UHGV virus genome: UHGV-0797466 | Source of the DNA: a virus | Strand: one strand, 5' to 3' | Length of the DNA: 9,708 nucleotides | In this document: positions 1 through 9,708 of the stretch, one piece after another | Layout of the letters: each line of letters starts with the position of its first letter | How positions within the stretch are numbered: position 1 is the first letter of the stretch | Made by a program: the position numbers and the translations under genes | The notes under the pieces: generated by a model | Database searches by the model: none | Seen by the model: only the letters and a program-made list of their open reading frames with translations | What the model was told of the DNA's origin: nothing

Positions 1-13
1 GCCAGGAGGACCC

Positions 14-38
14 GTAAAAAAGCCGGATTGCTCCGGCT
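14..38 (-). terminator. Rho-independent terminator downstream of the SSB gene
   Basis: Hairpin AGCCGGA (21-27) / TCCGGCT (32-38) with a 4-nt loop; the A-run at 16-21 is a U-run on the minus-strand transcript. It lies 16 nt past the SSB stop at 54-56. The same block (about 85% identical) recurs at 8751-8775. Confidence 0.6.
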
Positions 39-53
39 TCTGTCACTCGTCGC

Positions 54-476
54 TTAAAACGGTATGTTATCCCCGTACGGATCATCATTCCCCGCCTGTT
101 GTTTTGCCCTGTTCAGCGCGTCAGTAGCCTGGCCCTGTTGACCTTTTTTGCCGCCCAGTCGCGCCGTTCGCGCACTGATTACACTGTCTGCGATAACCTG
201 CCAGCCCTGCCGCGTTTCTCCGTTCTGCCCAGTCCACTGGCTGATCTGCATGTTACCCGCCACGCTCAGGAGTTCACCCTTGCGGTGCCTTTCCAGTGCT
301 TCGGCCTGTCTGCCAAATGCCAGGACGGATAACCACATCGTCGCCGTTCCGTCATCTGCCTGGCTGCACGGAAGGGGGACCGCCATACGCGCCAGCGTCA
401 TCGGTGTGCCCTTGCTGGTCTGTTTTACCTGCGGGTCGTCCACCAGCCGCCCGTAAGCGGCTATCTGTGCTGTCAT
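54..476 (-). CDS. ssb: Single-stranded DNA-binding protein (SSB, OB-fold) of phage/plasmid type
   Basis: 140-aa ORF. The core resembles E. coli SSB as remembered (TMWLSVLAFGRQAEALERHRKGELLSVAGNMQISQWTGQNGETRQ vs [42 protein letters not shown]). It has a Gly/Gln-rich linker and an acidic tail ending DNIPF (E. coli SSB ends DDDIPF). ATG at 474-476 overlaps the upstream stop (ATGA); SD-like GGAGAGGTGG lies upstream. Confidence 0.85.
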   Translation of the reverse strand: MTAQIAAYGRLVDDPQVKQTSKGTPMTLARMAVPLPCSQADDGTATMWLSVLAFGRQAEALERHRKGELLSVAGNMQISQWTGQNGETRQGWQVIADSVISARTARLGGKKGQQGQATDALNRAKQQAGNDDPYGDNIPF

Positions 477-751
477 GATTCCACCTCTCCGGTTTTAACG
501 TTGATGGTTGTTACCTGTTCCGCTTCGGCAATCTCCCGTTCTGTCAGCGTGGCAAAGTTTGCCGCCGTCGTGGTCATGAATGCGCTTATCAGTTCGGGAT
601 GTGCTTTCGCGTATCCTTCCCCCGCGTGGCGGTCTATCGTTCTGATTGCCACCTTTAAAGCGTGCTCTGTCATGTCTAACGCGCGATATTTCGGTTCTGT
701 TCTGTCTCTGCGTTTTTTGAGTGATTTATTAAATTTCCCTGAAGTGTGCAT
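473..751 (-). CDS. Hypothetical small basic protein (92 aa) between the origin and ssb
   Basis: ATG at 749-751 preceded by SD-like GAGGGGG (762-768, about 10-nt spacer). Stop overlaps the ssb start. Lysine/arginine-rich N-terminus. No family recognised. Confidence 0.5.
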   Translation of the reverse strand: MHTSGKFNKSLKKRRDRTEPKYRALDMTEHALKVAIRTIDRHAGEGYAKAHPELISAFMTTTAANFATLTEREIAEAEQVTTINVKTGEVES

Positions 752-801
752 ATTTATTTTTACCCCCTCGTTTAAAAAGTTTTGAGTTGTGCCTCCCCTT
801 G

Positions 802-1026
802 TCTACCTTATCTACCTTAGTGGCCCTCATGCCAGTAATGGCGCGGCTTTCAGCGGGGTAGAGTGCTTTTATCCACTATCTACCCCGTGTCTACCTCCCT
901 GTCTGACTCAGGTAAAATCAGGTAGAGAGGGTAGATAGTGGGTAGACAGTAAAAAAAAGCTATCTACCTAACTTAATGCACTGAATTAAATGTATTTTTC
1001 TTTACTCAGGTAGACAGGGTAGACAG
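802..1026. repeat. Iteron field, putative replication origin
   Basis: At least 11 copies of the hexamer core TCTACC / GGTAGA in about 225 bp: TCTACC at 802, 811, 879, 890, 963; GGTAGA at 857, 921, 930, 941, 1009, 1018. Extended form GGTAGACAG appears three times. An A8 tract (951-958) and an AT-rich stretch (971-1003) are embedded. It sits directly downstream of the primase/helicase gene, as P4 ori/crr iterons sit near alpha. Confidence 0.7.
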
Positions 1027-1039
1027 CAATTACAAAAAA

Positions 1040-2794
1040 TTATAAAAACGCGTCGCACTCGTCTGTTGTTATTGCGTTAGTCTGCGTTACTCCCTTAACT
1101 TTCCGCGTAATATATTCATGTCCGTAAACTTTCGCGGCTGGCTTCATAGCCTTGCCAAAGTCATTTACGTTTAGCGGTTTGCTCCTGCCTGCGTACGCCA
1201 TAAACGCCAGATAGACGCGGTAAAGGCTGTTTCTGGTCGTGTACTTCACTGAATCGCCACCGCCGCCCATCATCAGGCCGCGTGCTTCCTCCAGAAAATT
1301 CAGGAACTGGCAAAACTCAATAACCGGATCCGTCTGTTGCTTTATTGCCAGTGCTTCATCACCGTCACGCTGTTCCAGTAGTAAAGCCCGTGCTTTCTCA
1401 GAGTCGGTAAAGTTCGCCAGCAATCGGCGGATAATGACAGGGATTTCAGCCGCAATCTTTTCCGGTAGCTCCCTGTCTTTTTCGGCCTCACTGACGATAT
1501 TGTCGAAACGGAAAATCACGCGACGACGTGCCACACCTCCGGCCCGTTCGGTGAATATCATCGGGTTGTTGTTGGTCGCCAGCACCACCGCCCTGATTAC
1601 CGCCGTAAAACGCTTTTCATATTTCGGGTTAATTTCCACGGGGTCACCGCCCGTGATTTTCTTGATGCCCGTTCCTTCGCCTGTATATTTCGGCTGGTCA
1701 GCCAGGACGATAAGACGACTCCCGACAACCTGCGCACGTCCACCAGCATCATCAAGCGATGTCATTTCAGCGCTTACCGTGTTCTGTTTCCCTGCCAGAA
1801 GGCTGGCTATGTGCGTGAATGTACTTTTACCGCTCCCGCCGTCTCCGGTGGCCTCAATAAACATCTGCCAGTCGTACCGGTTCGCCATAATCATGTACAG
1901 CGCGGCACATATACGCATCATCTTGCGCGGGTCTTTTCCGGCTGCGTGCTTAAGCCATTTATGAAAGTTTGGCGCGTTATCGCGGATGTTCTCCCCTGGT
2001 GCTGGTGGCGTGTACTCAATGCCGTTGTTCGTGGTGATCCAGTTCTCCGGCGTGTGCGGGGAAAATTCCCCCGTTTTCAGGTCAAGCGCACCATTGGCGA
2101 ACGGCAGCAAATCGCCGGACGGCTCGCCCATTGGTTCGGCAATAACTTTTAACGCTTCCACGGCGTTATTGATTACGCGCTTGCTGAAAGTGGCCCTGTG
2201 CTCTGAATAGATCGCCACCATTTCGCGGCTAAGTTCCATTGTGCTGACCGGACACCATACCCCGCCGCGCCATACGTGAACGATTTCACTTTCAGGATGT
2301 ACGCAAACGCCATCAAAGCGATCGGCAAGCAGCTGCGCGCGCTCACTGTCCGCCATCTGCGAAAGTTGCGCCTTTTGCTTTACCGGAAGCTCAATGACCA
2401 GACCATCAGAAAGATTCTGGCGCTCACGGGCCAGATATTCGCGCCAGTTCTCCACCTTCTGACCGTGCATACCATCAGGGTAAAAATTTGCATCCTGAAT
2501 ATCTGCCGCCGCCAGCTTCTGACCAATCTTTTTGGTCTCCACTAAATCCAGTTCTCCGGCCTGGTACAGCCTTACGCGCTTTTTCCCATCCGGAACAATT
2601 TTCAGCGCATCAAGTTCGGCAAGCTGATTTGGCCCAAGCCACACAGGCGGCACATTATCGCCGGATGCGGGGCCGTCCTGCTCCTGCCACTGTTTTGCAT
2701 GTGACCACGCATCACTACCCGCGAAAATAATTACCTCTGTGTCTTTGTGTTTTATTCCGCGTGGTTGTTTTTTTACGTTCGGTGCCAGTTTCAT
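1040..2794 (-). CDS. P4 alpha-like primase/helicase (phage/plasmid primase with P-loop NTPase domain)
   Basis: 584-aa ORF with Walker A motif GDGGSGKST. General resemblance to P4-family primase C-terminal / D5-type NTPase proteins. ATG at 2792-2794 overlaps the upstream stop (ATGA); SD-like CAGGGGT lies 5 nt upstream. An iteron field lies immediately downstream. Confidence 0.85.
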   Translation of the reverse strand: MKLAPNVKKQPRGIKHKDTEVIIFAGSDAWSHAKQWQEQDGPASGDNVPPVWLGPNQLAELDALKIVPDGKKRVRLYQAGELDLVETKKIGQKLAAADIQDANFYPDGMHGQKVENWREYLARERQNLSDGLVIELPVKQKAQLSQMADSERAQLLADRFDGVCVHPESEIVHVWRGGVWCPVSTMELSREMVAIYSEHRATFSKRVINNAVEALKVIAEPMGEPSGDLLPFANGALDLKTGEFSPHTPENWITTNNGIEYTPPAPGENIRDNAPNFHKWLKHAAGKDPRKMMRICAALYMIMANRYDWQMFIEATGDGGSGKSTFTHIASLLAGKQNTVSAEMTSLDDAGGRAQVVGSRLIVLADQPKYTGEGTGIKKITGGDPVEINPKYEKRFTAVIRAVVLATNNNPMIFTERAGGVARRRVIFRFDNIVSEAEKDRELPEKIAAEIPVIIRRLLANFTDSEKARALLLEQRDGDEALAIKQQTDPVIEFCQFLNFLEEARGLMMGGGGDSVKYTTRNSLYRVYLAFMAYAGRSKPLNVNDFGKAMKPAAKVYGHEYITRKVKGVTQTNAITTDECDAFL

Positions 2795-3090
2795 TTCTTA
2801 CCCCTGAATACGTTAAGCATCTTTTTTATTTCCTGAATATTGGCGCGTGCTTTCTCCCTGCTGGTGGGCACGTTACGCGGTACGGCCTGCACCAGAGAAA
2901 AATCACGATCGAACTGATAAACAGGCATCACGCAATCATATTCGTAGCCTTCACGACGGTAGGTTACGCGCCGTTCCTCCACGCCCTTAATCATTACCGT
3001 GCCGCCGTACTGGTCGCGGTAAATATCACCGCGCATGAATTTAGTGCGAGTTTTGCCACTGGCAGTTAAGCCAGAATATTTAAGTTTCAT
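2791..3090 (-). CDS. Hypothetical protein (99 aa), translationally coupled to the primase gene
   Basis: ATG at 3088-3090 with GGAGAA 8 nt upstream. Stop overlaps the primase start. No family recognised. Confidence 0.6.
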   Translation of the reverse strand: MKLKYSGLTASGKTRTKFMRGDIYRDQYGGTVMIKGVEERRVTYRREGYEYDCVMPVYQFDRDFSLVQAVPRNVPTSREKARANIQEIKKMLNVFRGKK

Positions 3091-3095
3091 TATTT

Positions 3096-3326
3096 TTATT
3101 CTCCGGTGTGGAGCGCTTTATTATTCTCGTGAATTGCCATAGCCTTATTGAGTTCATCAATAACAGGTGTCAATAATGTCTGAACAGCGGCAAACATTAA
3201 TGATGAATGATCTTCGCCACCTTCCGGCACTTCAATTAATTTAATTAACAACGCATTCATTTCGCGTGCTTTAATTAATGCGTTTTCAGAGTGGATTAAT
3301 ACTTCAAAAGGGATTTTATGCATCAC
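3096..3326 (-). CDS. Hypothetical small protein (76 aa) in the AT-rich island
   Basis: Starts ATGATG at 3321-3326 with AGGGAGA 7 nt upstream. Overlaps the upstream gene by 11 nt. Sequence is visibly AT-rich. Confidence 0.5.
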   Translation of the reverse strand: MMHKIPFEVLIHSENALIKAREMNALLIKLIEVPEGGEDHSSLMFAAVQTLLTPVIDELNKAMAIHENNKALHTGE

Positions 3327-3546
3327 AAATTTTCTCCCTTATTCTTTTAATGTCCTCATTAAGGATGTCTGTAACTTTTATCAGCGAGTTTTTGGCAATT
3401 ATTTTTATTGTTTTAAGTTTTCTTTTGTCGTGCTCCGACTGTGATTTTCTCTCCATAATCTCCACCATGTGGGTAACATCAACGAGCGCACGTATCAGTA
3501 TTTGCATTGCTTCTTCTGCTGCGTCCGGTGTGGTTTTATTGCACAT
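3316..3546 (-). CDS. Hypothetical small protein (76 aa) in the AT-rich island
   Basis: ATG at 3544-3546 with strong SD GGAGGGG 3-5 nt upstream. Overlaps the 3' end of the 89-aa ORF in another frame. Charged, probably helical. Confidence 0.5.
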   Translation of the reverse strand: MCNKTTPDAAEEAMQILIRALVDVTHMVEIMERKSQSEHDKRKLKTIKIIAKNSLIKVTDILNEDIKRIREKICDA

Positions 3547-3764
3547 GTACCCCTCCGCATTTTTTCGTTAGAAATAAGCGTTCTTCTTTCCTGTTCATCG
3601 CTCAGGAATACGCAGACCTCACCGCTAAGGCGTTTAAGTAAGCCGATGATTGCCCCTGATTCGCTGTCGGTCATCATGCCAGGGTAATCCTCTGCCAGTG
3701 CGCAAATAACTTCGATTTGGTGGGCGCGTTCTGCTGCCTGTTGTAGTGTGATTTCCTGACTCAT
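3495..3764 (-). CDS. Hypothetical protein (89 aa)
   Basis: ATG at 3762-3764 overlaps the stop of the upstream Icd-like gene (ATGA). The C-terminal about 17 aa overlap the next ORF, so the true 3' end is uncertain. Confidence 0.45.
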   Translation of the reverse strand: MSQEITLQQAAERAHQIEVICALAEDYPGMMTDSESGAIIGLLKRLSGEVCVFLSDEQERRTLISNEKMRRGTCAIKPHRTQQKKQCKY

Positions 3765-4222
3765 AAGCCTACCCCCTGACGAATACGGGCGACAAAAATC
3801 AGATGTGCGTGCGGCAGCTGTGCACGTGCTTCGCGCTCAGTGGCAGCGGTAACGGTGAATATTGCAATGCTGTCTGTCAGGCACTGCATAAAGCGCCAGA
3901 CAAAATAAGGGCGTGCGGATACAGCCATGTGAAAGGCTCCCAGATGAATTTTAAGGAGTCTCGCTACTACGCTGTCAAACATGGTGGCGAGACGTAACAG
4001 GGTTGACAGACTGGTCATCTGGAAACCAGCGAGCACAAAGGCTCCCCCGTTACGCCCCGCCATAATGCGGGTATGGGTAGGTTTACGGACACAAAAAAAC
4101 CGCTTATCGGATGTGGGCGGCTGTCCGCCAGATGTATTCAGGCTGTCAAACCCGGTCGCCATGTGGGCGACGGGGGAAGCATACAGCCCCGTGATAATTT
4201 TTTGCAAGCGGTTTTTACGCAT
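3761..4222 (-). CDS. Ash/Icd-like protein (153 aa) with C-terminal Icd-like motif
   Basis: C-terminus TEREARAQLPHAHLIFVARIRQG matches the remembered Icd-like motif (SE.EAR ... LSFAAR). ATG at 4220-4222 overlaps the upstream stop (cATGcgTAA); SD-like AGGGG lies 7 nt upstream. An internal start at 3928 (GGGAG SD) is an alternative. Confidence 0.6.
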   Translation of the reverse strand: MRKNRLQKIITGLYASPVAHMATGFDSLNTSGGQPPTSDKRFFCVRKPTHTRIMAGRNGGAFVLAGFQMTSLSTLLRLATMFDSVVARLLKIHLGAFHMAVSARPYFVWRFMQCLTDSIAIFTVTAATEREARAQLPHAHLIFVARIRQGVGL

Positions 4223-4418
4223 GATATGACCCCTGGCGAATACGGGCAGCGAATACCATCACGCAGCCAGCCGGAGATTGCTGACGCGCTTCCTGTTCGC
4301 TGGTGGCCTCGATGGTAATCACGCGCGGTTGTGCCGTGCTCAGGGCGATAAAACGCCAGATGTATTTATTCAGGTTGTACGAGTCCCGCCCTTGCGGGTG
4401 TCTGGTATAATTTCTCAT
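4215..4418 (-). CDS. Host cell division inhibitor Icd-like small protein (67 aa)
   Basis: This is the C-terminal 67 codons of the 382-aa ORF in the track; the rest is judged spurious. ATG at 4416-4418 with GAGG 5 nt upstream. C-terminus SEQEARQQSPAGCVMVFAARIRQG is paralogous to the next gene and fits the Icd-like motif. Confidence 0.6.
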   Translation of the reverse strand: MRNYTRHPQGRDSYNLNKYIWRFIALSTAQPRVITIEATSEQEARQQSPAGCVMVFAARIRQGSYHA

Positions 4419-4439
4419 AGCTACCTCGATACTTTCGCT

Positions 4440-4614
4440 ATCGTTGGTGGTTAGAAGCCCTGCATGTGTTCCAGCACTGCGGGGCTTTGCTGTACATACA
4501 CCACAATCATTAGTGTGTGTACAGATTAAATTTAAGTGCGCTACAGTGTCAAGTGTTTTATTTACACACCTTTTGGTGTAATGTATGCACACCTCAAAAT
4601 AACCGGACATTCTG
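4440..4614. promoter_or_regulatory. Divergent promoter/operator region between the leftward operon and the RHH gene
   Basis: Lies between divergent starts at 4418 (-) and 4615 (+). Imperfect 9-bp-stem hairpin AAGCCCTGC (4453-4461) / GCGGGGCTT (4478-4486). Palindromic motif TTACAC...GTGTAA / ACACC-TTTT-GGTGT at 4561-4580 and related TACATACACC at 4492-4501. Decamer AACCGGACAT at 4600-4609. Confidence 0.5.
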
Positions 4615-4920
4615 ATGGCAACAGGAAATATCAACAGCAGATCGCAAATGAAAAATATCCGCTTCCCCCATGATGTAATCGAGGAAATGGAAAATTCGAA
4701 AACGGAAGGGGAAACAATAGCCGCTTTCGTGATTACAGCCGTTCGCGGTGAGATCGCCCGCCGCCAGGCAGAAGGAAGCGGAGAAAATCCCCTGGTTTCT
4801 TCGCTCGATGCACTGGCGCAGGTGGAAAAAATCGGAGTCAAAGCAGCCGAGGAGATCGGGCAACTCATCACCGTCGCGCGTGAAGAACTCCAGCGTCGCA
4901 AGGCCAAAGAGCAGGAGTGA
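4615..4920 (+). CDS. Arc/Mnt-like ribbon-helix-helix DNA-binding protein, candidate satellite repressor
   Basis: Segment KNIRFPHDVIEEMEN aligns with the P22 Arc N-terminus as remembered (FNLRWPREVLDLVRK), followed by a helical, charged C-terminal extension. It is the only convincing plus-strand gene, divergent from the main operon, and followed by a strong terminator. Start could be M1 (4615) or M12 (4648); neither has a strong SD. Confidence 0.65.
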   Translation: MATGNINSRSQMKNIRFPHDVIEEMENSKTEGETIAAFVITAVRGEIARRQAEGSGENPLVSSLDALAQVEKIGVKAAEEIGQLITVAREELQRRKAKEQE

Positions 4921-4962
4921 CCATCACCAGCGCCGTGGTGTAAGGTATTACGGCGCATTGCT

Positions 4963-5151
4963 ATGCAGGACAACACAATGACCGATAAAGAATTGACCAA
5001 AACATTATCACCGGCACGGAAAAGACGGCGCAGAAAGATAGAGCATGAATCAGAAAGATTCGCGCCATGTGCTTTTGCCCTTGAGCAATTCCTTAAAGAG
5101 TACAGGGAAAAGCGCTCATTGCAGGTATGGCAACGAACTGAACCAGACTGA
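4963..5151 (+). CDS. Possible small basic protein (62 aa) downstream of the RHH gene
   Basis: ORF in the same frame as the RHH gene, separated from it by a single TGA (4918-4920). No convincing SD. It fills most of the gap before the terminator. Weak call. Confidence 0.3.
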   Translation: MQDNTMTDKELTKTLSPARKRRRRKIEHESERFAPCAFALEQFLKEYREKRSLQVWQRTEPD

Positions 5152-5246
5152 TTGCATTGCCCACCAGCCTGATAACGGCTATCATCCCCGTGCTTATGTT
5201 TGGGATCACACACACAAACGGCGCAGCGGGTTATCTGTTCAGAAAG

Positions 5247-5274
5247 GCGGCTCCATTTCGGGGCCGCTTTTTTT
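5247..5274 (+). terminator. Rho-independent terminator ending the rightward (RHH) transcription unit
   Basis: 8-bp stem GCGGCTCC (5247-5254) / GGGGCCGC (5260-5267) with one G-U pair, loop ATTTC, followed by T7 (5268-5274). Confidence 0.75.
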
Positions 5275-5396
5275 ATACCTGAAAAACCCCAATTTTGTTG
5301 TTTTTCAGTTTCACCAGGGCGAACGAATCCCCGCCCACGTTCTGGCGTATATTCAATCTTCATGGTTATAGCTCTGTGTTCAGATGATTGATGTGT

Positions 5397-5413
5397 GGCG
5401 GCTGCGTGCCGCC
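5397..5413 (-). other. GC-rich hairpin just 3' of alpA
   Basis: Perfect 6-bp stem GGCGGC / GCCGCC with loop TGCGT, 8 nt past the alpA stop. No U-run follows on the minus strand, so it is not a canonical terminator. Confidence 0.3.
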
Positions 5414-5420
5414 AGCGTGA

Positions 5421-5609
5421 TTAATGAACTGCCTTGCAGCTATCCTTCCAGGCCAGAACCTCGGATAAAGACCAGCCAACGGAACGACCGCCAAGTTTAC
5501 GACGTGATGGGAATTGTCCGGCCTTTTCCAGGCGGTAGCGACACGTACGGCTAAGGCCGGTTAGTTTTTCGCATTCTTTTTCACGTATAAACCGATCAGT
5601 GCTTAACAC
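5421..5609 (-). CDS. alpA: AlpA-family HTH regulator (excisionase-like)
   Basis: C-terminal part LTGLSRTCRYRLEKAGQFPSRRKLGGRSVGWSLSEVLAWK resembles the AlpA family (ITGLS...YRL...G.FP....LG.R.VGW...E...W). The track ORF (5421-5690) starts at TTG. I prefer the GTG at 5607-5609, which has a strong SD (GGGGGG, 5-nt spacer) and gives 62 aa, the usual AlpA size. Confidence 0.75.
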   Translation of the reverse strand: MLSTDRFIREKECEKLTGLSRTCRYRLEKAGQFPSRRKLGGRSVGWSLSEVLAWKDSCKAVH

Positions 5610-5760
5610 TATTGCCCCCCTTTCGTTTCTTAAAGAGTCATCAGGTGTCTTATTGTGTCGTATTGTTCCCGCTAGAGTGATGAATGGCAAATACTGAGGA
5701 TATATGATTTACAGAAAATGAAACAGTAAGAATAAAATCTTTTAAATTCATGTTAATACA

Positions 5761-5791
5761 AAGGCATAAAATATTGTTCCATGCCTTTTTT
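5761..5791. terminator. Hairpin with flanking T-run in the int-alpA intergenic region
   Basis: Stem AAGGCAT (5761-5767) / ATGCCTT (5781-5787), 13-nt loop, T6 at 5786-5791 on the plus strand. The minus-strand side is moderately U-rich. Could terminate int read-through; modest confidence. Confidence 0.35.
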
Positions 5792-5880
5792 CTCGCTCTT
5801 TAAAGAGTGATTCGCTAGTGTACAAAAAACCAGTAACACATTAAAAATCAGCTACTTATAAATCCGTACGCTTTTTCGCC

Positions 5881-5930
5881 TCTTGTTCGTAGTTGTTCCA
5901 CATTGTTGCTCATTGTTGCACGTTGTATCT
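5881..5930. repeat. Five 10-bp-phased TTGTT repeats just 3' of int
   Basis: Decamers tcTTGTTcgt, agTTGTTcca, caTTGTTgct, caTTGTTgca, cgTTGTatct begin at 5881, 5891, 5901, 5911, 5921, in exact 10-bp register. Confidence 0.5.
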
Positions 5931-5974
5931 GTTCGCATATCCAGTATGCGCATACTGAAAAAACACGAAAAAAA

Positions 5975-7204
5975 TTATTTTCTTCTGGCTACGGGTAGCG
6001 TGGTTACGTTTTCATGTGTTCCCGCCAGTATCCCTAACCGCTCCGTCCACATATCCAGCGCATTGCGTTTCGCATCCAGATAACGGGAATGATTATAAAC
6101 TCGCTGCATTCCTGGCATCTGGTGGCCTGTAAGCTGCTCCACGACATGCGGATCAACGCCTAAATCGTTCAGCATGGTTGTAAAGGTGCGCCGGATGTCA
6201 TGCAGTGACCAGTGAGGGTGATTAAGCCTCCTGTGCGCTAATCTTCCATACTGCGATACGCTGGCCTCCTGTTTCACTTCCCCCAGCAATAAGCCCGTGT
6301 GCCTGTTCTGCTCCACCAGCTGCGTGACGAACGGCAGGATCGCTTCCGGTATGGGCCGGAATATTGCGACCTTCGTTTTGCTGTGCTCCTTCGGAACGGT
6401 CCATAGCATTTCCGTAAAATCCCACTCCCCGATCTCCGATAACCTCAGTTCTACCGTTCTGGCTCCGAAGACAATCAGGAGGCGGATTAACGCGACGTAG
6501 TAAGGGGAGAATATTTTTTTGTCCAGTGCCTGCAATAATTCGCCAAGTTCTTTGTTACTTAAGACACGTTCGCTTATATCCGGTTTTTTCCCAACGTCCG
6601 CCACGTTCAGATCGTCCAGAACGTTGCTGATTGCATAGCGCCGCCTACGGCAGAACTTAAGCGCCTGTTTGCACGCCTGTAGCACGAATCCGGCAGTAAC
6701 AGGCGTTCGCTTTGCCACCTGGTCAAAACAGGCCAGCCAGTGCCGTAGCTCGCATTTATCCAGCGGCATAGCACCAATCTGCTGTATTACGTGATTATTA
6801 AGTCGCCTTTTCAGGGCGATATAATCCACGCGGTTTTCCTTTACGTAATACTCAAGCCAGTAGGTGAGCGCATCGCCAACCGTTACGGGCTTTAACGCTT
6901 CCTGTACGGTGTAATTCATCTCATGACGTGGATTTTTCCCCTCAGCCAGCCATGTGCGACACTGTGCGGCTTTTTCCCTGGCTGCTTTCAGGCTCAGATC
7001 AGGATAACTTCCCAGCTTAATGCGTTCGGGTCGTGTCTCCCTTCCCGTTCCGGCCCTGTATGTGAAATACCAGGTCAATTTCCCTGATGTTAAATATTTC
7101 ACGCTCAGGTTTCCGCCATCACTATAAAACGTGTTTTTCTCCGCTGGCTTACCATGAAGTTTCCTTAGCAAGGTATCGCTCAGTTTGTTCATTGCTCTGC
7201 TCAC
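5975..7204 (-). CDS. int: Tyrosine recombinase, P4-like integrase
   Basis: 409-aa ORF. N-terminal arm-binding-like region (SDGGNLSVKYLTSGKLTWYFTYR ... KLGSYPDLSLKAAREKAAQ) resembles P4-family integrases. C-terminal catalytic region contains HDIRRT and a Tyr near the end (RVYNHSRYL). GTG at 7202-7204 with SD GAGGGGG 6 nt upstream; an in-frame ATG at 7192 is an alternative. Confidence 0.9.
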   Translation of the reverse strand: MSRAMNKLSDTLLRKLHGKPAEKNTFYSDGGNLSVKYLTSGKLTWYFTYRAGTGRETRPERIKLGSYPDLSLKAAREKAAQCRTWLAEGKNPRHEMNYTVQEALKPVTVGDALTYWLEYYVKENRVDYIALKRRLNNHVIQQIGAMPLDKCELRHWLACFDQVAKRTPVTAGFVLQACKQALKFCRRRRYAISNVLDDLNVADVGKKPDISERVLSNKELGELLQALDKKIFSPYYVALIRLLIVFGARTVELRLSEIGEWDFTEMLWTVPKEHSKTKVAIFRPIPEAILPFVTQLVEQNRHTGLLLGEVKQEASVSQYGRLAHRRLNHPHWSLHDIRRTFTTMLNDLGVDPHVVEQLTGHQMPGMQRVYNHSRYLDAKRNALDMWTERLGILAGTHENVTTLPVARRK

Positions 7205-7228
7205 GTTTTACCCCCTCTTTACGAAAAA

Positions 7229-7620
7229 GTGACTACACCAGTGACTACACCGTTCGGTGCACTGTATAGAAACAACGTGGAACAAATAGACACAAGAAAT
7301 ATACAGGCGGGTCATCTTTCCAGGGGGAAGCGCGCTAATTCATGAGGGGCGTTAATGTTGATATGGGGATCCCCATAACGGGGCTACCGGATTTTTTTCC
7401 GGTTTAACTGTTAATCAGGCTGGTGGGCTTTACCTGTTTTGTAGGAGTGGTCATTATGACCATTCAGACAATGACCTTAATCAGAACTTTTCGCTAAAAA
7501 ATGACGTTGGTCACGTCGTCCGGAAAGCACAAAATCCCGTCAATTTTTAATTAACGGTTAAACCGTCTTTTGTCACGGCGTGTCACTGGTTGTCACTCTC
7601 CGTCACGGTATGTCGCTACT
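7229..7620. other. attP-like region: arm-type repeats on both sides of a palindrome-rich central segment
   Basis: Tandem 12-bp repeat GTGACTACACC(A/G) at 7229-7240 and 7241-7252, 25 bp upstream of int. Five 10-bp-phased repeats at 7571-7620 (TGTCACggcg, TGTCACtggt, TGTCACtctc, cGTCACggta, TGTCgCtact). GTCAC is the reverse complement of GTGAC, and GTCACT resembles the lambda Int arm-site core (AGTCACTAT) as remembered. Between them: perfect palindromes TATGGGGATCCCCATA (7362-7377) and GGTCATTATGACC (7449-7461), and a hairpin at 7386-7403. Confidence 0.5.
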
Positions 7621-7622
7621 CG

Positions 7623-7904
7623 TTAACGCCGTAACCGCTCCGGCTTCTTCCAGTGGTACGTAATTTTCTCCGTTTCCCGATACAGTGCCACGCGGCGATT
7701 GTAGGCCAGCATTTCAAGAACGCGGATCCGTATGTTGCGCATATCCACATCATTAAGCTGGATACCATCACGGCGCATCACCTCAGCAACCACACGCGCG
7801 TAATTTTCGGCGGTCACGCTGTCCGGCTGCGTGGCCTGTTCGTCATGCTGCTGGCTGATTCCGGTAACGCGGCGGATTAATCCCAGTAGTTCGGCTTCTG
7901 TCAT
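7623..7904 (-). CDS. Hypothetical protein (93 aa) between cos and the att region
   Basis: The track ORF (7623-8102) would run across the cos site. The internal ATG at 7902-7904 (MTEAELLGLIRR...) has an SD-like GGGGG upstream and leaves cos intact. No family recognised. Confidence 0.5.
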   Translation of the reverse strand: MTEAELLGLIRRVTGISQQHDEQATQPDSVTAENYARVVAEVMRRDGIQLNDVDMRNIRIRVLEMLAYNRRVALYRETEKITYHWKKPERLRR

Positions 7905-7938
7905 TGTGCCCCCATCGCTCTGATAGTCTGGTGTCGTC

Positions 7939-8116
7939 GGGTCCTTCCTGGAATTATGGCCCGTTACGGGGCGGCGACCTCGCGCGTTTTCACTATTTAT
8001 GAAAATTTTTCGGGATCCATGTCCGGTTTCTCTGCAAGTTAACCATATGAAAAATATAAAAACATGCTTTCCATGAACCGGACATGCGCAAAAAACAGAC
8101 ACTAAAACCGGACATC
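7939..8116 (+). other. Lambda-type cos site (cosQ-like flank, cosN, cosB-like repeats), plus-strand orientation
   Basis: 7969-7980 is GGGCGGCGACCT, the lambda 12-nt cohesive end as remembered. The flanks resemble the lambda left end (CGCGcGTTTTCaCTATTTATGAAAATTTTtCGG) and right end (GGGTCCTTcC..GG..CGTTACG). cosB-like repeats follow: ATGTCCGGTT (8019-8028, inverted), AACCGGACAT (8076-8085), AACCGGACAT (8106-8115), with an AT-rich spacer that could be an IHF site. Confidence 0.75.
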
Positions 8117-8183
8117 GAACCAGTTAACCGAAAGTGTGCACAAATCACATGCATTGCTGCGAGTGATTAACAAGTTATCGGCT

Positions 8184-8618
8184 TTACTGTTCTGTATCGG
8201 CTGATTGCTCCATGCTGGCACGGCGAACGCTTATGGCATGACGCCACCCAGCCAGAAAGCCAGCCATTTTATTTCGTGCCTTGCTCACATCTTCCGGTGA
8301 ATAGCCGTAAATCTGCAAACCTTCATCAAATCGATGTTCTGTTTCTTCACTGGAGTACTCGTCACGCTCAGATGAAAGCAGCCTGGCAAACATAATTTTT
8401 TCCAGCGCACTGGTTTCTACGTGATATCTGATGGTCTCAAGACGGCTTTTACCTGAAGACCAAAGCAATGTATGCCCGATGTGATAACCGCCAGACTTTC
8501 CGCGATCCGCATTAAGATACGGCATCCCCTGTTTGGTCCATGCGCGAATAGTGGTTCTGTTAACCTTGAAATGTTCAGCTATTTCCTGCTGACTTACAAA
8601 ACAAGCTTTATCAATCAT
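8184..8618 (-). CDS. Nu1-like terminase small subunit homolog (winged-HTH); candidate Rpp-type packaging redirector
   Basis: N-terminus VSQQEIAEHFKVNRTTIRAWTKQGMPY aligns with lambda gpNu1 (VNKKQLADIFGASIRTIQNWQEQGMPV) as remembered. 144 aa. ATG at 8616-8618 with AAGGT SD. No terminase large subunit follows, which fits a satellite TerS-like protein rather than a phage terminase operon. Confidence 0.8.
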   Translation of the reverse strand: MIDKACFVSQQEIAEHFKVNRTTIRAWTKQGMPYLNADRGKSGGYHIGHTLLWSSGKSRLETIRYHVETSALEKIMFARLLSSERDEYSSEETEHRFDEGLQIYGYSPEDVSKARNKMAGFLAGWRHAISVRRASMEQSADTEQ

Positions 8619-8685
8619 AATGTTACCTTAACTGCATGGTTAAATATTAATCAAGTGGTGGTGGTGTCACCTTCACGGAAAAACG

Positions 8686-8750
8686 TCATAAATAGCGAAA
8701 ACCCGCGAGGTCGCCGCCCCGTAACGGGTCCATAATTCCAGGAAGGACCC
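8686..8750 (-). other. Second lambda-type cosQ-cosN module, inverted relative to 7939-8003, upstream of the Nu1-like gene
   Basis: The reverse complement of 8686-8750 reads GGGTCCTTCCTGGAATTATGGACCCGTTACGGGGCGGCGACCTCGCGGGTTTTCGCTATTTATGA. cosN is at 8708-8719 on the minus strand. The 22 nt after cosN match lambda exactly as remembered. No AACCGGACAT repeats lie between this cosN and the gene start. Confidence 0.7.
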
Positions 8751-8775
8751 GTAAAAAAGCCGGATTTCTCCGGCC
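8751..8775 (-). terminator. Rho-independent terminator downstream of the 137-aa gene, abutting the cosQ-like flank
   Basis: Hairpin GCCGGA (8759-8764) / TCCGGC (8769-8774) with loop TTTC; the A-run at 8753-8758 is a U-run on the minus-strand RNA. It lies 7 nt past the stop at 8781-8783 and is paralogous to the terminator at 14-38. Confidence 0.6.
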
Positions 8776-8780
8776 TTGTC

Positions 8781-9194
8781 TCAGATGGTTTTCAGTATGC
8801 GATCGATGTCGCCGTCATCGCCCTGGTTTCTGCCATCGTATGCCATGCCAGCTGATACGGCTTGCGGGCTGTGCATGTCCATAAAGTTTTCAAAGGCTGC
8901 GGTAAGTTCCGGCGCAACCTTCGGACGTTCCTGCTCTATGGTCATGCTAAGGATGCTTTTAGCCGTACCAACATCGATACAAGGCACGTTTGCCATTGCA
9001 CGCAACAGCGGCTGATAGTCTTTATGCTCATGAAGCGCCATAATCGCATCAGCGCGCGGCTTGTCCTGCTCTTCCAGTTTGTTTAGTTGATATACGGCCT
9101 CATAGGTTGATAAACCTCTGTCAGCCATTGCCCGCGCTTCGGCTTTAAATTTACTCGCCAGCGGTAGCGTCATGATGCTTTCATTCGTTGCCAT
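8781..9194 (-). CDS. Hypothetical protein (137 aa) between the gpD-like gene and cos
   Basis: ATG at 9192-9194 with AGGGGGA SD. Acidic C-terminal region. No family recognised. A capsid-related role is suggested by position only. Confidence 0.55.
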   Translation of the reverse strand: MATNESIMTLPLASKFKAEARAMADRGLSTYEAVYQLNKLEEQDKPRADAIMALHEHKDYQPLLRAMANVPCIDVGTAKSILSMTIEQERPKVAPELTAAFENFMDMHSPQAVSAGMAYDGRNQGDDGDIDRILKTI

Positions 9195-9206
9195 CGTTCC
9201 CCCTGC

Positions 9207-9542
9207 TTATCGGGCCAGCGGCTGAACGGATACGCCGGAACCCGCAAAGGCGGCGCATTTTTTCGCATCGGTGTCGACGCTCTCAGGCCAGTTAACGGCG
9301 GCAATATTGAATATCCCCGTCTTGTAACACTGTGCTGATTTCTGCTTTGACGTGTCCACAGGGTACGAGGTCAGATAAACAGCCTTGCCAGATTCCTTAC
9401 CATCCCACGGCTTAAACTCGCCATTGTCCGCCAGCATCAGCGGGGTAAATTCCTGAATAACGCCAGCATCAGCGGCAAAATGTACCAGCGTCGTGGCGAC
9501 CTGCTGACTGCCTGCAAATAACTCAATGTATGGAGTGTCCAT
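9207..9542 (-). CDS. Head decoration protein, lambda gpD-like
   Basis: 111 aa. TPLMLADNGEFKPWDG ... YKTGIFNIAAVNWPESVDTDAKKCAAFAGSGVSV matches lambda gpD as remembered (TPLMLDTSSRKLVAWDG ... [35 protein letters not shown]). ATG at 9540-9542. Confidence 0.8.
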   Translation of the reverse strand: MDTPYIELFAGSQQVATTLVHFAADAGVIQEFTPLMLADNGEFKPWDGKESGKAVYLTSYPVDTSKQKSAQCYKTGIFNIAAVNWPESVDTDAKKCAAFAGSGVSVQPLAR

Positions 9543-9553
9543 AGAATCCCCCG

Positions 9554-9708
9554 TTAACCAATTTTGACGGTAACAAATTTGCGAATATCTGCCGGAACCG
9601 GCTGCGGTGCGCTGTGCGTCTGCACGTACTCAATCGCCGGATCGCCGTCCTCAATCCAGTTTTTCGGGTAAAAAATGGTCCGAGCAGGATAAAGACATGC
9701 ACGACCCA
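9554..9708 (-). CDS. 3' end of an upstream ORF running off the window (possibly scaffold/protease-like by synteny with lambda Nu3/C before D)
   Basis: Open minus-strand frame ending at TAA (9554-9556). Hand-translated C-terminus: ...WIEDGDPAIEYVQTHSAPQPVPADIRKFVTVKIG. Function is inferred from position only. Confidence 0.35.
   Translation of the reverse strand, partial: GRACLYPARTIFYPKNWIEDGDPAIEYVQTHSAPQPVPADIRKFVTVKIG

What the first reader, a model, noticed from the sequence alone, without database searches (positions are those of the whole stretch)
7939..8750. Nu1-like gene bracketed by two inverted lambda-type cosQ-cosN modules
The lambda cohesive-end 12-mer GGGCGGCGACCT occurs at 7969-7980 (+) and as its reverse complement at 8708-8719. 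It sits inside about 65-bp arms (7939-8003 vs 8686-8750) that are near-identical in inverted orientation; I see one 1-bp indel and two substitutions. The canonical lambda order cosQ-cosN-cosB-nu1 is split. The minus-strand copy sits in the lambda position upstream of the Nu1-like gene but has no cosB-like repeats. The plus-strand copy carries the cosB-like triad but points into the 3' end of that gene. Possible meanings are packaging initiation in both directions (which could mobilise flanking DNA either way), an invertible segment via recombination between the arms, or a decoy cos that titrates helper terminase. I do not recall an inverted cos pair like this being described for PICI or P4-type elements, but I cannot check that here.
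Basis: partly seen in the sequence, partly recalled or inferred. Interest (0 to 1): 0.78.

Follow-up and report, generated by a model that had tools for sequence, protein, structure and literature searches.

The report
Known PICI double cos site (cos1/cos2)
The two inverted lambda-type cos sites around a Nu1-like gene are real, but they are the already published cos1, cos2 and rppA of an EcCICFT073/EcCIO42-type satellite island of E. coli, which uses them to steal the DNA-packaging machinery of helper phages.

Summary
GGGCGGCGACCT occurs at 7969-7980 (+) and 8708-8719 (-), inside about 78-nt inverted arms.

It is not new. The window is an EcCIO42/EcCICFT073-family PICI. The bracketed gene is rppA, whose product is 142/144 identical to the CFT073 protein. 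The arms are the published cos2 (+) and cos1 (-) (Fillol-Salom 2018, 2019).

In those papers the minus copy upstream of rppA (cos1) is essential and is recognised by RppA-TerS. Deleting the triad-bearing plus copy (cos2) raises transfer.

I did not find four points in those two papers, which are the only PICI papers in the searchable library that mention cos1 and cos2:
- cos2 is 93% identical, from cosQ through the third R repeat, to the own cos of PhiR12-type lambdoid phages. The N-terminal half of their TerS is unrelated to lambda Nu1.
- The cosB of cos2 is swapped among sister islands, while cos1 keeps an invariant ACACCACCACCAC-TTGATTAA element.
- Fifteen complete genomes, all one clone, carry the segment exactly inverted. 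Inversion therefore happens but is rare.
- Klebsiella and Salmonella relatives have cos1 only.

Likely reading: two helper-specific packaging starts, held inverted because that arrangement is stable.

The parts
7938..8015 (+). cos2 arm. cosQ-like part 7938-7968, cosN cohesive-end 12-mer 7969-7980, lambda-like stretch after cosN 7981-8015.
   Evidence: Inverted repeat found. 12-mer. Aligned to lambda cos. The CCGGACAT-triad cosB flank beside this arm (window 8044-8233) matches the published 'CFT073 cos.2' sequence at 99%.
8016..8117 (+). cosB of cos2. Three AACCGGACAT repeats (8019-8028 on the minus strand, 8076-8085 and 8106-8115 on the plus strand), with an A+T-rich spacer between the first two.
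   Evidence: Repeats. 99 of 102 identical to the cosB that sits just upstream of the terminase genes of phage PhiR12_1. The same sequence lies between the lysis genes and terS in a resident prophage.
8184..8618 (-). rppA (redirecting phage packaging protein A), 144 aa. This is the 'Nu1-like' gene.
   Evidence: 142/144 identical to the CFT073 protein at the corresponding locus, which the paper names c1503/RppA. Matches the solved RppC structures 6hlk/6hn7 at E=4.5e-31.
8619..8672 (-). cosB region of cos1 and the rppA leader. It holds the conserved element ACACCACCACCAC-TTGATTAA at 8647-8667 (read on the minus strand).
   Evidence: Homology to phage cos stops about 40 nt after cosN. The element is invariant in E. 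coli RppA-type and RppB-type, Klebsiella and Salmonella islands. Published cosB swaps show that this side of cos1 is what RppA-TerS needs (PMC6739421). A promoter-like site at 8670-8643 overlaps it.
8673..8751 (-). cos1 arm. cosN 12-mer 8708-8719, cosQ-like part 8720-8751.
   Evidence: The published 'CFT073 cos.1' sequence maps to 8755-8454 on the minus strand at 95%; the published text is a machine-read copy with errors.
8753..8777 (-). Hairpin followed by a T-run, terminator-like. It ends the upstream capsid/decoration operon immediately before cosQ of cos1.
   Evidence: Folds at -18.3 kcal/mol, z = -3.0. An equivalent hairpin sits in the same place in the RppB-type island L013. The consensus scanner did not list it.
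7623..7904 (-). 93-aa ORF forming the left flank of the cassette. It does not move in the inverted isoform.
   Evidence: RefSeq CDS in the 100%-identical genome. The identical protein stays on the same strand in WP4-S17-ESBL-08 while rppA flips.
8781..9194 (-). 137-aa ORF forming the right flank of the cassette. It is followed upstream by gpD-like decoration and gpE-like capsid genes.
7222..7262 (.). att core where the integrase end and the cos end of the island are joined. The window is the circular, attP-like form.
   Evidence: Window 1-7262 matches L002 15579-22842, and window 7222-9677 matches L002 11625-14078. The two matches share a 41-bp overlap.

Best explanation
The region is the packaging module of an EcCIO42/EcCICFT073-family phage-inducible chromosomal island. 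It consists of rppA flanked by two convergent lambda-type cos sites.

Shown for the prototype, which is about 98% identical over this region (published): cos1 is the minus-strand copy upstream of rppA. It is the site used when lambda or phi80 is the helper. RppA pairs with the N-terminal part of the phage small terminase. The mixed complex no longer reads the phage cosB but reads the island's own cosB next to cos1. Phage packaging is thereby blocked and island packaging promoted.

Shown here:
- cos2, the plus-strand copy, is a complete phage-type cos. Its cosQ, cosN and R triad match the own cos of PhiR12-type lambdoid phages.
- The N-terminal half of the small terminase of those phages is unrelated to lambda Nu1.
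- Sister islands keep the cos1 element but carry other cosB cassettes at cos2.

Inferred:
- cos2 is a helper-mimic start site. It would let the island be packaged directly by helpers that Rpp cannot bind.
- With lambda or phi80 it is only a weak competing cut site 740 bp in front of cos1. That would explain why its deletion raises transfer.
- The inverted orientation is the stable way to carry two cos sites, because termination needs the same orientation as initiation. Direct repeats would let terminase excise rppA.

The arms occasionally recombine. This gives gene conversion between them and, in one clone, an exact inversion of the cassette.
For: Identity of the element:
- The region is 97.8% identical to CFT073 and 99.8-100% identical to E. 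coli 042 and 300033.
- The protein is 142/144 identical to the CFT073 protein at the corresponding locus, named c1503/RppA in the paper, and matches the RppC structures.
- The published cos.1 and cos.2 sequences map to the two copies.
- The published genetics are in PMC6092414 and PMC6739421.

cos2 matches a phage cos:
- 93.3% identity over window 7937-8115 to PhiR12_1 to PhiR12_5, immediately upstream of their Nu1 and A genes.
- By block: cosN 12/12, cosB 99/102, and background level beyond the third repeat.
- The same cosB lies between lysis genes and terS in a resident prophage. This cosB type occurs in 226 of 5426 genomes.

PhiR12 small terminase:
- Only its C-terminal half is homologous to lambda Nu1.
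- The published Rpp escape mutations lie in the N-terminal part.

Modularity:
- Other cosB triads sit at cos2 in L025, L026 and L013. The ACACCACCACCAC-TTGATTAA element at cos1 is invariant.
- A natural island has phage cosB plus the first 9 terS codons fused to rppA. This shows exchange with that phage type.

Inversion:
- 15 genomes match a synthetic inverted query end to end.
- The 813-bp block is 100% identical but reversed between HM670 and WP4-S17-ESBL-08. HM670 has 47-nt perfect arms.
Against: - No experiment links cos2 to a PhiR12-type helper. The role of cos2 is inferred from sequence only.
- With the tested helpers, cos2 is dispensable and mildly harmful (PMC6092414).
- CFT073 shows no PhiR12-type cosB outside the island (one place in the record). 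Its natural helper, phage 4, has another cosB.
- Two of the alternative cosB cassettes have no match in the phage collection.
- Klebsiella and Salmonella Rpp islands do without a second cos.
- The stability argument for the inverted orientation rests on what is known of lambda cos-duplication phages, recalled from general knowledge and not tested here.
Confidence: 0.75

Rival explanations
1. cos2 is a functionless leftover of recombination between the island and helper phages at cos. It is tolerated rather than selected.
For: - Deleting cos2 increases transfer by lambda and phi80 (PMC6092414).
- It is absent from Klebsiella and Salmonella Rpp islands.
- Phage-island recombination at cos demonstrably occurs (GB089 hybrid).
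Against: - The second, convergent cos is kept in every E. coli sublineage examined: RppA-type, RppB-type and even the rppA-truncated GB089.
- cosQ, cosN and complete triads are intact in all of them. At least three different cosB cassettes are each preserved whole.
- The cosB of cos2 is 97% identical to a live phage cosB.
Confidence: 0.2
2. The arms form a programmed invertible switch that toggles the direction of packaging or the expression of rppA.
For: Both orientations exist in nature. The break lies inside the arms.
Against: - All 15 inverted genomes carry one 100%-identical island at one site, so they represent one event.
- 27 of 27 contigs, 4 of 4 CFT073 assemblies and 68 genomes are fixed in the other orientation.
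- No invertase gene lies in or next to the segment.
- The inversion arose in the lineage with the longest perfect repeat, 47 nt. That fits ordinary homology-dependent recombination.
Confidence: 0.04
3. cos2 is a decoy that titrates helper terminase and so contributes to interference with the phage.
For: It carries a phage-type cosB. Terminase does act on it, since cloned cos2 confers transfer (PMC6092414).
Against: - Interference with lambda is fully accounted for by RppA. Deleting c1503 restores plaquing (PMC6739421).
- Lambda and phi80 small terminases recognise a different R sequence.
- One extra site per island copy is a weak sink.
Confidence: 0.05
4. The convergent pair serves packaging in both directions from the integrated island, mobilising flanking chromosomal genes either way.
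For: The pair lies about 0.7 kb from one island end, and one site points outward. The inversion swaps which cosB points outward.
Against: By established knowledge of lambda packaging, a cos terminase needs a second cos in the same orientation to finish a particle. A single integrated copy offers none. No data bear on this here.
Confidence: 0.05
5. The second copy is an assembly artefact.
For: The window itself has an odd fold-back at its last 43 bases.
Against: The same pair is present in dozens of independently finished genomes and was deleted and cloned experimentally (PMC6092414).
Confidence: 0.01

Closest known systems
EcCICFT073 cos1 / cos2 / RppA (Fillol-Salom et al. 2018 ISME J, PMC6092414; 2019 Mol Cell, PMC6739421)
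   Same: It is the same module. The region is 97.8% identical in DNA. The protein is 142/144 identical to the CFT073 protein at the corresponding locus. Both published cos sequences map onto the two copies. The window's island is the EcCIO42 type named in the 2018 paper.
   Different: The window's cos1 has a cosQ part converted towards that of cos2, so its arms are more alike than in CFT073 (71 against 66 of 81 columns). The papers do not discuss the inverted orientation. They report that no phage cosB could be identified in the island.
Own cos of PhiR12-type lambdoid phages (PV340549 and relatives) and matching resident prophages
   Same: cosQ-cosN-cosB is contiguous and 93% identical to cos2. 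The three R repeats and their spacing are the same.
   Different: In the phage the site is followed by its own terS and terL. In the island it points into the 3' end of rppA, and no matching terS is present.
Phage lambda cos (cosQ, cosN, I2, R3-I1-R2-R1)
   Same: The 12-nt cohesive end is identical. The cosQ is similar, and about 35 nt after cosN are nearly identical in both copies.
   Different: Neither copy has the lambda R sequence CGTTTCC. cos1 has no repeat triad at all. There are two copies, in inverted orientation.
SaPIbov5 / SaPIbov4 (cos SaPIs) and P4: satellites that carry the helper's cos
   Same: A satellite is packaged because it carries the helper's cos. SaPIbov4 is cited as also having two putative cos sites (PMC6092414).
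   Different: Those use only mimicry of the helper site. This island adds a redirecting protein with a private cosB.
Helper-embedded PICI 11capE, which shares 258 bp at 90% with its helper prophage's cos (PMC10111431)
   Same: An island and a lambdoid prophage share a long stretch that covers the whole cos, cosB included.
   Different: That case concerns one site and a co-resident helper. Here the match is to a phage type that is not resident in the CFT073 record.

Membership tests
EcCICFT073-type (Rpp, cos) PICI | Encodes an Rpp protein | tested here: met
   142/144 identical to the CFT073 protein at the corresponding locus, which the paper names c1503/RppA. Matches the RppC structures 6hlk/6hn7 at E=4.5e-31.
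EcCICFT073-type (Rpp, cos) PICI | cos1 and cos2 with lambda-type cosQ and cosN flanking rpp | tested here: met
   The published sequences map to 8755-8454 (-) and 8044-8233 (+). The 12-mer occurs twice.
EcCICFT073-type (Rpp, cos) PICI | Island gene set (integrase, AlpA-type regulator, primase) and site-specific integration with a repeated core | tested here: met
   RefSeq annotation of the 99.9%-identical island in strain 300033. The ends share a 41-bp core, which is joined in the window. I did not run domain searches on these genes.
EcCICFT073-type (Rpp, cos) PICI | Induction and transfer by a helper phage; cos1-dependent, RppA-dependent packaging | not testable with these tools
   Published for EcCICFT073. 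The 2018 paper saw no transfer of the marked O42 island after mitomycin C induction of its own strain.
Lambda-type cos site | cosN with the cohesive end GGGCGGCGACCT, preceded by cosQ | tested here: met
   for both copies.
Lambda-type cos site | cosB with R3/R2/R1 elements of the lambda Nu1 type (CGTTTCC) | tested here: not met
   Alignment to lambda loses all similarity after about 40 nt past cosN. cos2 has AACCGGACAT repeats instead. cos1 has none.
PhiR12-type lambdoid cos | Contiguous cosQ-cosN-three R repeats homologous to the phage site | tested here: met
   cos2 only: 93.3% over 179 nt, cosB 99/102.
PhiR12-type lambdoid cos | Followed by the cognate small and large terminase genes | tested here: not met
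   In the window the site is followed by the 3' end of rppA.
Programmed DNA inversion switch | Inverted repeats bounding the segment | tested here: met
Programmed DNA inversion switch | Dedicated recombinase in or beside the segment | tested here: not met
   The only ORF inside is rppA. The neighbours are small ORFs of unknown function with no Pfam match. The island integrase has its own att core elsewhere.
Programmed DNA inversion switch | Both orientations within one clone | tested here: not met
   15 of 15 genomes of the inverted clone, 4 of 4 CFT073 assemblies and 27 of 27 contigs with the identical RppA are each uniform. Finished assemblies cannot reveal minority forms.

The most novel reading that the evidence does not exclude
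The island carries two packaging starts for two classes of helper. One is a private, invariant cosB read by RppA-TerS, for lambda-like small terminases. The other is an exchangeable phage-copied cosB cassette at an inverted second cos, for helpers whose small terminase Rpp cannot bind. Recombination at these cos arms would be how the island retunes its helper range. That covers recombination between the two arms and recombination with helper phages. Inversion of the rppA cassette would be a by-product.
Probability: 0.4. Interest if true: 0.5.

Novelty: already known. Interest (0 to 1): 0.3.

Why it matters
The finding as stated adds nothing to the literature. The double cos site and its Nu1-like gene are a textbook example of satellite piracy, solved genetically and structurally in 2018-2019.

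The follow-up matters modestly to people who work on satellites. It gives a concrete, testable reason for the puzzling second cos site, whose deletion improves transfer in the laboratory. It names the phage type to test (PhiR12-like). It points to a short conserved sequence as the likely RppA-TerS binding site. It also shows that the cos region is a place where islands and helper phages exchange DNA.

Tried and rejected
- A scan of one genome per species with an Rpp alignment found no confirmed relative. I used look-ups of individual homologues instead.
- A literature search for the PhiR12 phages or their accession numbers returned only unrelated papers. A search for later work on the island's capsid genes returned only the 2018 paper.
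- The cos2 of the RppB-type island L013 and the GGTTGTTGT-type cosB have no counterpart in the phage collection beyond the cosQ/cosN core. The helper-mimic idea is therefore documented for one cosB type only.
- RppA and the PhiR12 small terminase show no significant similarity. I therefore dropped the idea that rppA derives from that phage's terS.
- The PhiR12 small terminase has no solved relative.
- The consensus terminator scan missed the hairpin at 8753-8777. I folded it separately.
- I considered inversion by terminase cutting both cosN sites and re-ligating the fragment, which would have identical overhangs at both ends. The inverted clone's arms are identical over the 47 nt that include cosN. 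The crossover therefore cannot be placed, and this route can neither be excluded nor preferred over ordinary homologous recombination.
- I did not test for an IHF site between the first two repeats beyond reading the sequence.

Full report
**1. The observation**

The sequence is as described. GGGCGGCGACCT occurs at 7969-7980 on the plus strand and at 8708-8719 on the minus strand, and nowhere else. Shuffled sequence gives 0.04 matches.

The 12-mers sit in inverted arms, 7938-8015 against 8673-8751. The repeat finder splits these at a 1-nt indel into a 25-nt and a 56-nt pair. A global alignment gives 71 of 81 identical columns, with a 25-nt perfect run across cosN.

Between the arms lies ORF 8184-8618 on the minus strand. 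On the plus-copy side there are three AACCGGACAT repeats, at 8019-8028 (-), 8076-8085 (+) and 8106-8115 (+).

**2. What the window is**

The region is 100% identical to E. coli 300033, 99.8% to E. coli 042 and 97.8% to CFT073. In those genomes it lies in an island of about 11 kb with integrase, primase, SSB, a lambda gpE-like capsid gene and a gpD-like decoration gene.

The window is a circular permutation of that island. Window 1-7262 equals the integrase half. Window 7222-9677 equals the other end. The two share a 41-bp att core. The window therefore shows the excised or tandem form.

The 2018 paper that defined Gram-negative PICIs names both EcCICFT073 and EcCIO42.

**3. The bracketed gene and the two copies are published objects**

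The 144-aa product is 142/144 identical to the CFT073 protein at the corresponding locus, which the 2019 paper names c1503/RppA. It also matches the solved RppC structures 6hlk and 6hn7 at E=4.5e-31.

Fillol-Salom et al. 2018 (PMC6092414) report the following:
- EcCICFT073 'carries two cosN sequences'.
- Each site, when cloned, makes a plasmid transferable by lambda and phi80.
- Deleting cos1 lowers transfer.
- Deleting cos2 raises it.
- Deleting both abolishes it.

Fillol-Salom et al. 2019 (PMC6739421) show the mechanism:
- RppA binds the phage small terminase.
- The complex no longer recognises the phage cosB.
- It recognises the cosB of cos1. This was shown by cosB swaps and by a phi80 chimera.

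Their supplementary figures print the sequences. By BLAST, 'cos.1' maps to window 8755-8454 on the minus strand, running into the rppA start. The cosB flank of 'cos.2' maps to 8044-8233 on the plus strand.

The core of the finding is therefore already known. The copy without repeats is the essential, Rpp-read site. The copy with the triad is the dispensable one.

Neither paper uses the words 'inverted' or 'orientation' for the sites. No other PICI paper in the library mentions cos1 and cos2.

**4. What cos2 is**

The papers state that no phage cosB could be identified in the island. Against the phage collection, window 7937-8115 is 93.3% identical to phages PhiR12_1 to PhiR12_5. That stretch runs from the first base of cosQ to the end of the third repeat. 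In the phages it lies directly upstream of their Nu1 and A genes.

Identity by block:

| Block | Identical |
|---|---|
| cosQ part | 23/31 |
| cosN | 12/12 |
| next 35 nt | 32/35 |
| cosB | 99/102 |
| beyond the third repeat | 25/87 (background) |

The same cosB type occurs in 226 of 5426 complete E. coli genomes. In at least one resident prophage it lies between the lysis genes and terS. So cos2 is a whole phage cos of a defined type.

The small terminase of that phage type matches the Phage_Nu1 family only in its C-terminal part. It aligns to lambda Nu1 only over lambda residues 86-177. The crystallised Rpp partner is TerS 1-98. The escape mutations lie at V3, A55, E65 and D68-R70. HK97, whose small terminase is unrelated, is insensitive. 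I therefore infer that PhiR12-type helpers escape Rpp, and that cos2 lets the island be packaged by them directly. This is not tested.

**5. Comparison across relatives**

cos1 shares with phage cos only cosQ, cosN and about 40 nt beyond. After that comes ACACCACCACCAC-TTGATTAA (window 8647-8667, minus strand). This element is invariant in the following islands:
- the window;
- CFT073;
- an RppB-type E. coli island with a different cohesive end;
- a Klebsiella island;
- a Salmonella island.

This fits the 2019 prediction that all Rpp proteins read a similar sequence.

The cos2 side varies:
- Islands with the same rppA carry a GGTTGTTGT / ACAACAACC / GGTTGTTGT triad instead (L025).
- The same triad is combined with a non-lambda cohesive end in an RppB-type island (L026). 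It occurs in 35 genomes.
- A further RppB-type island has CCGGAA(A/G)T repeats.
- In strain GB089 the operon-proximal cos has the PhiR12-type cosB plus the first nine codons of that phage's terS, fused in frame to the second half of rppA. This is direct evidence of island-phage recombination at cos.
- The Klebsiella and Salmonella islands have one cos only and no inverted repeat.

**6. Inversion**

I built a synthetic query in which 7938-8751 is reversed between unchanged flanks. It matches 15 complete genomes over its full length in one piece. The native orientation matches 68.

In WP4-S17-ESBL-08, rppA is on the opposite strand while both flanking genes are unchanged. Compared with HM670, which has the normal orientation, the 813-bp block is 100% identical but reversed.

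HM670 has 47-nt perfect arms, against 25 nt in CFT073 and 22+25 in the window. The cosQ part of cos1 differs between CFT073 and the window in a way that makes it equal to cos2 in the window. That is the signature of gene conversion.

All 15 inverted genomes carry one 100%-identical island at one site. All 27 contigs read that carry the window's exact RppA have the normal orientation. The arms do recombine, but rarely. There is no sign of a fast switch and no invertase gene. Whether RecA, phage Red or terminase does the recombining cannot be told from these data.

**7. How it most likely works**

With a lambda-like helper, RppA-TerS starts packaging at cos1 towards lower coordinates. This is published for the prototype.

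The two sites face each other 740 bp apart. A cut at cos2 would sever DNA that is being packaged from cos1. This gives a simple reason why deleting cos2 helps with lambda. It is an inference.

With a helper whose small terminase reads AACCGGACAT repeats, cos2 would start packaging towards higher coordinates. This is also an inference.

The inverted orientation fits what is known of lambda, from general knowledge and not tested here. Termination needs cosQ-cosN in the direction of travel, and direct cos duplications let terminase delete the DNA between them.

A hairpin with a T-run at 8753-8777 ends the upstream operon just before cos1. A promoter-like site overlaps the conserved element. rppA may therefore carry its own promoter inside the cassette and stay expressed after inversion. 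This is weakly supported.

**8. Verdict**

The feature is real and functional, and it is already described. I score it low for novelty.

The phage identity of cos2, the exchangeable cosB cassettes, the conserved cos1 element and the natural inversion were not found in the two papers that describe the system. They give testable predictions.

Noticed in passing
window 7222-7262 (and 1-7262 against 7222-9677): The window joins the integrase end of the island to its cos end across a 41-bp att core. It therefore represents the excised circle, or a tandem copy, not the integrated form. The core contains a tandem AGTGACTACACC x2 at 7228-7251.
   Followed up: partly
window 9666-9708: The last 43 bases are a 100% match to the reverse complement of a piece of the capsid gene about 0.4 kb further on (L002 14444-14486). 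A 12-nt overlap marks the switch point. It looks like a fold-back chimera at the contig end.
   Followed up: no
L027 3040-3490 (E. coli GB089): This island's cos next to the operon carries the PhiR12-type cosB and the first 9 codons of that phage's terS. These are fused in frame to the C-terminal half of rppA, giving a 69-aa ORF. Its second, inverted cos has the GGTTGTTGT-type cosB.
   Followed up: partly
L013 2862-2933 and 3591-3662; L026 about 1267 and 2074: RppB-type islands keep the inverted pair, but with a non-lambda cohesive-end region. That region differs between their own two copies: GGGTACGTGTAC at cos1 against GGGTAGCCATAC or GGGTCATGGGAC at cos2. The two sites there may serve different terminases.
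   Followed up: partly
L025 1300-1490 and 34 other genomes: A cosB cassette with GGTTGTTGT / ACAACAACC / GGTTGTTGT repeats sits at cos2. It has no match in 50,697 phage records, so its helper is unknown.
   Followed up: partly
L009 2576-3429 (Salmonella enterica): Two tandem 142-aa rpp paralogues (36% identical) follow a single cos with cohesive end GGGCGACGCGCT. The island is followed by lambda-like FI, FII, Z and U genes, so it appears to sit inside a prophage's late region.
   Followed up: no
window 8643-8670 (minus strand): A sigma-70-like match (GTGACA, 16 nt, AATATT) overlaps the conserved ACACCACCACCAC-TTGATTAA element. The same sequence may thus serve as both the packaging recognition site and the rppA promoter or operator.
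   Followed up: no
window 9207-9542 and the capsid gene beyond the window end: The island encodes lambda gpD-like decoration and gpE-like major capsid proteins (Pfam HDPD; Phage_cap_E in sister loci). [quoted passage not shown] The role of these genes seems unsettled.
   Followed up: no
window 4601-4610: A fourth exact AACCGGACAT lies far from cos, in the regulatory region of the island. It may well be chance.
   Followed up: no
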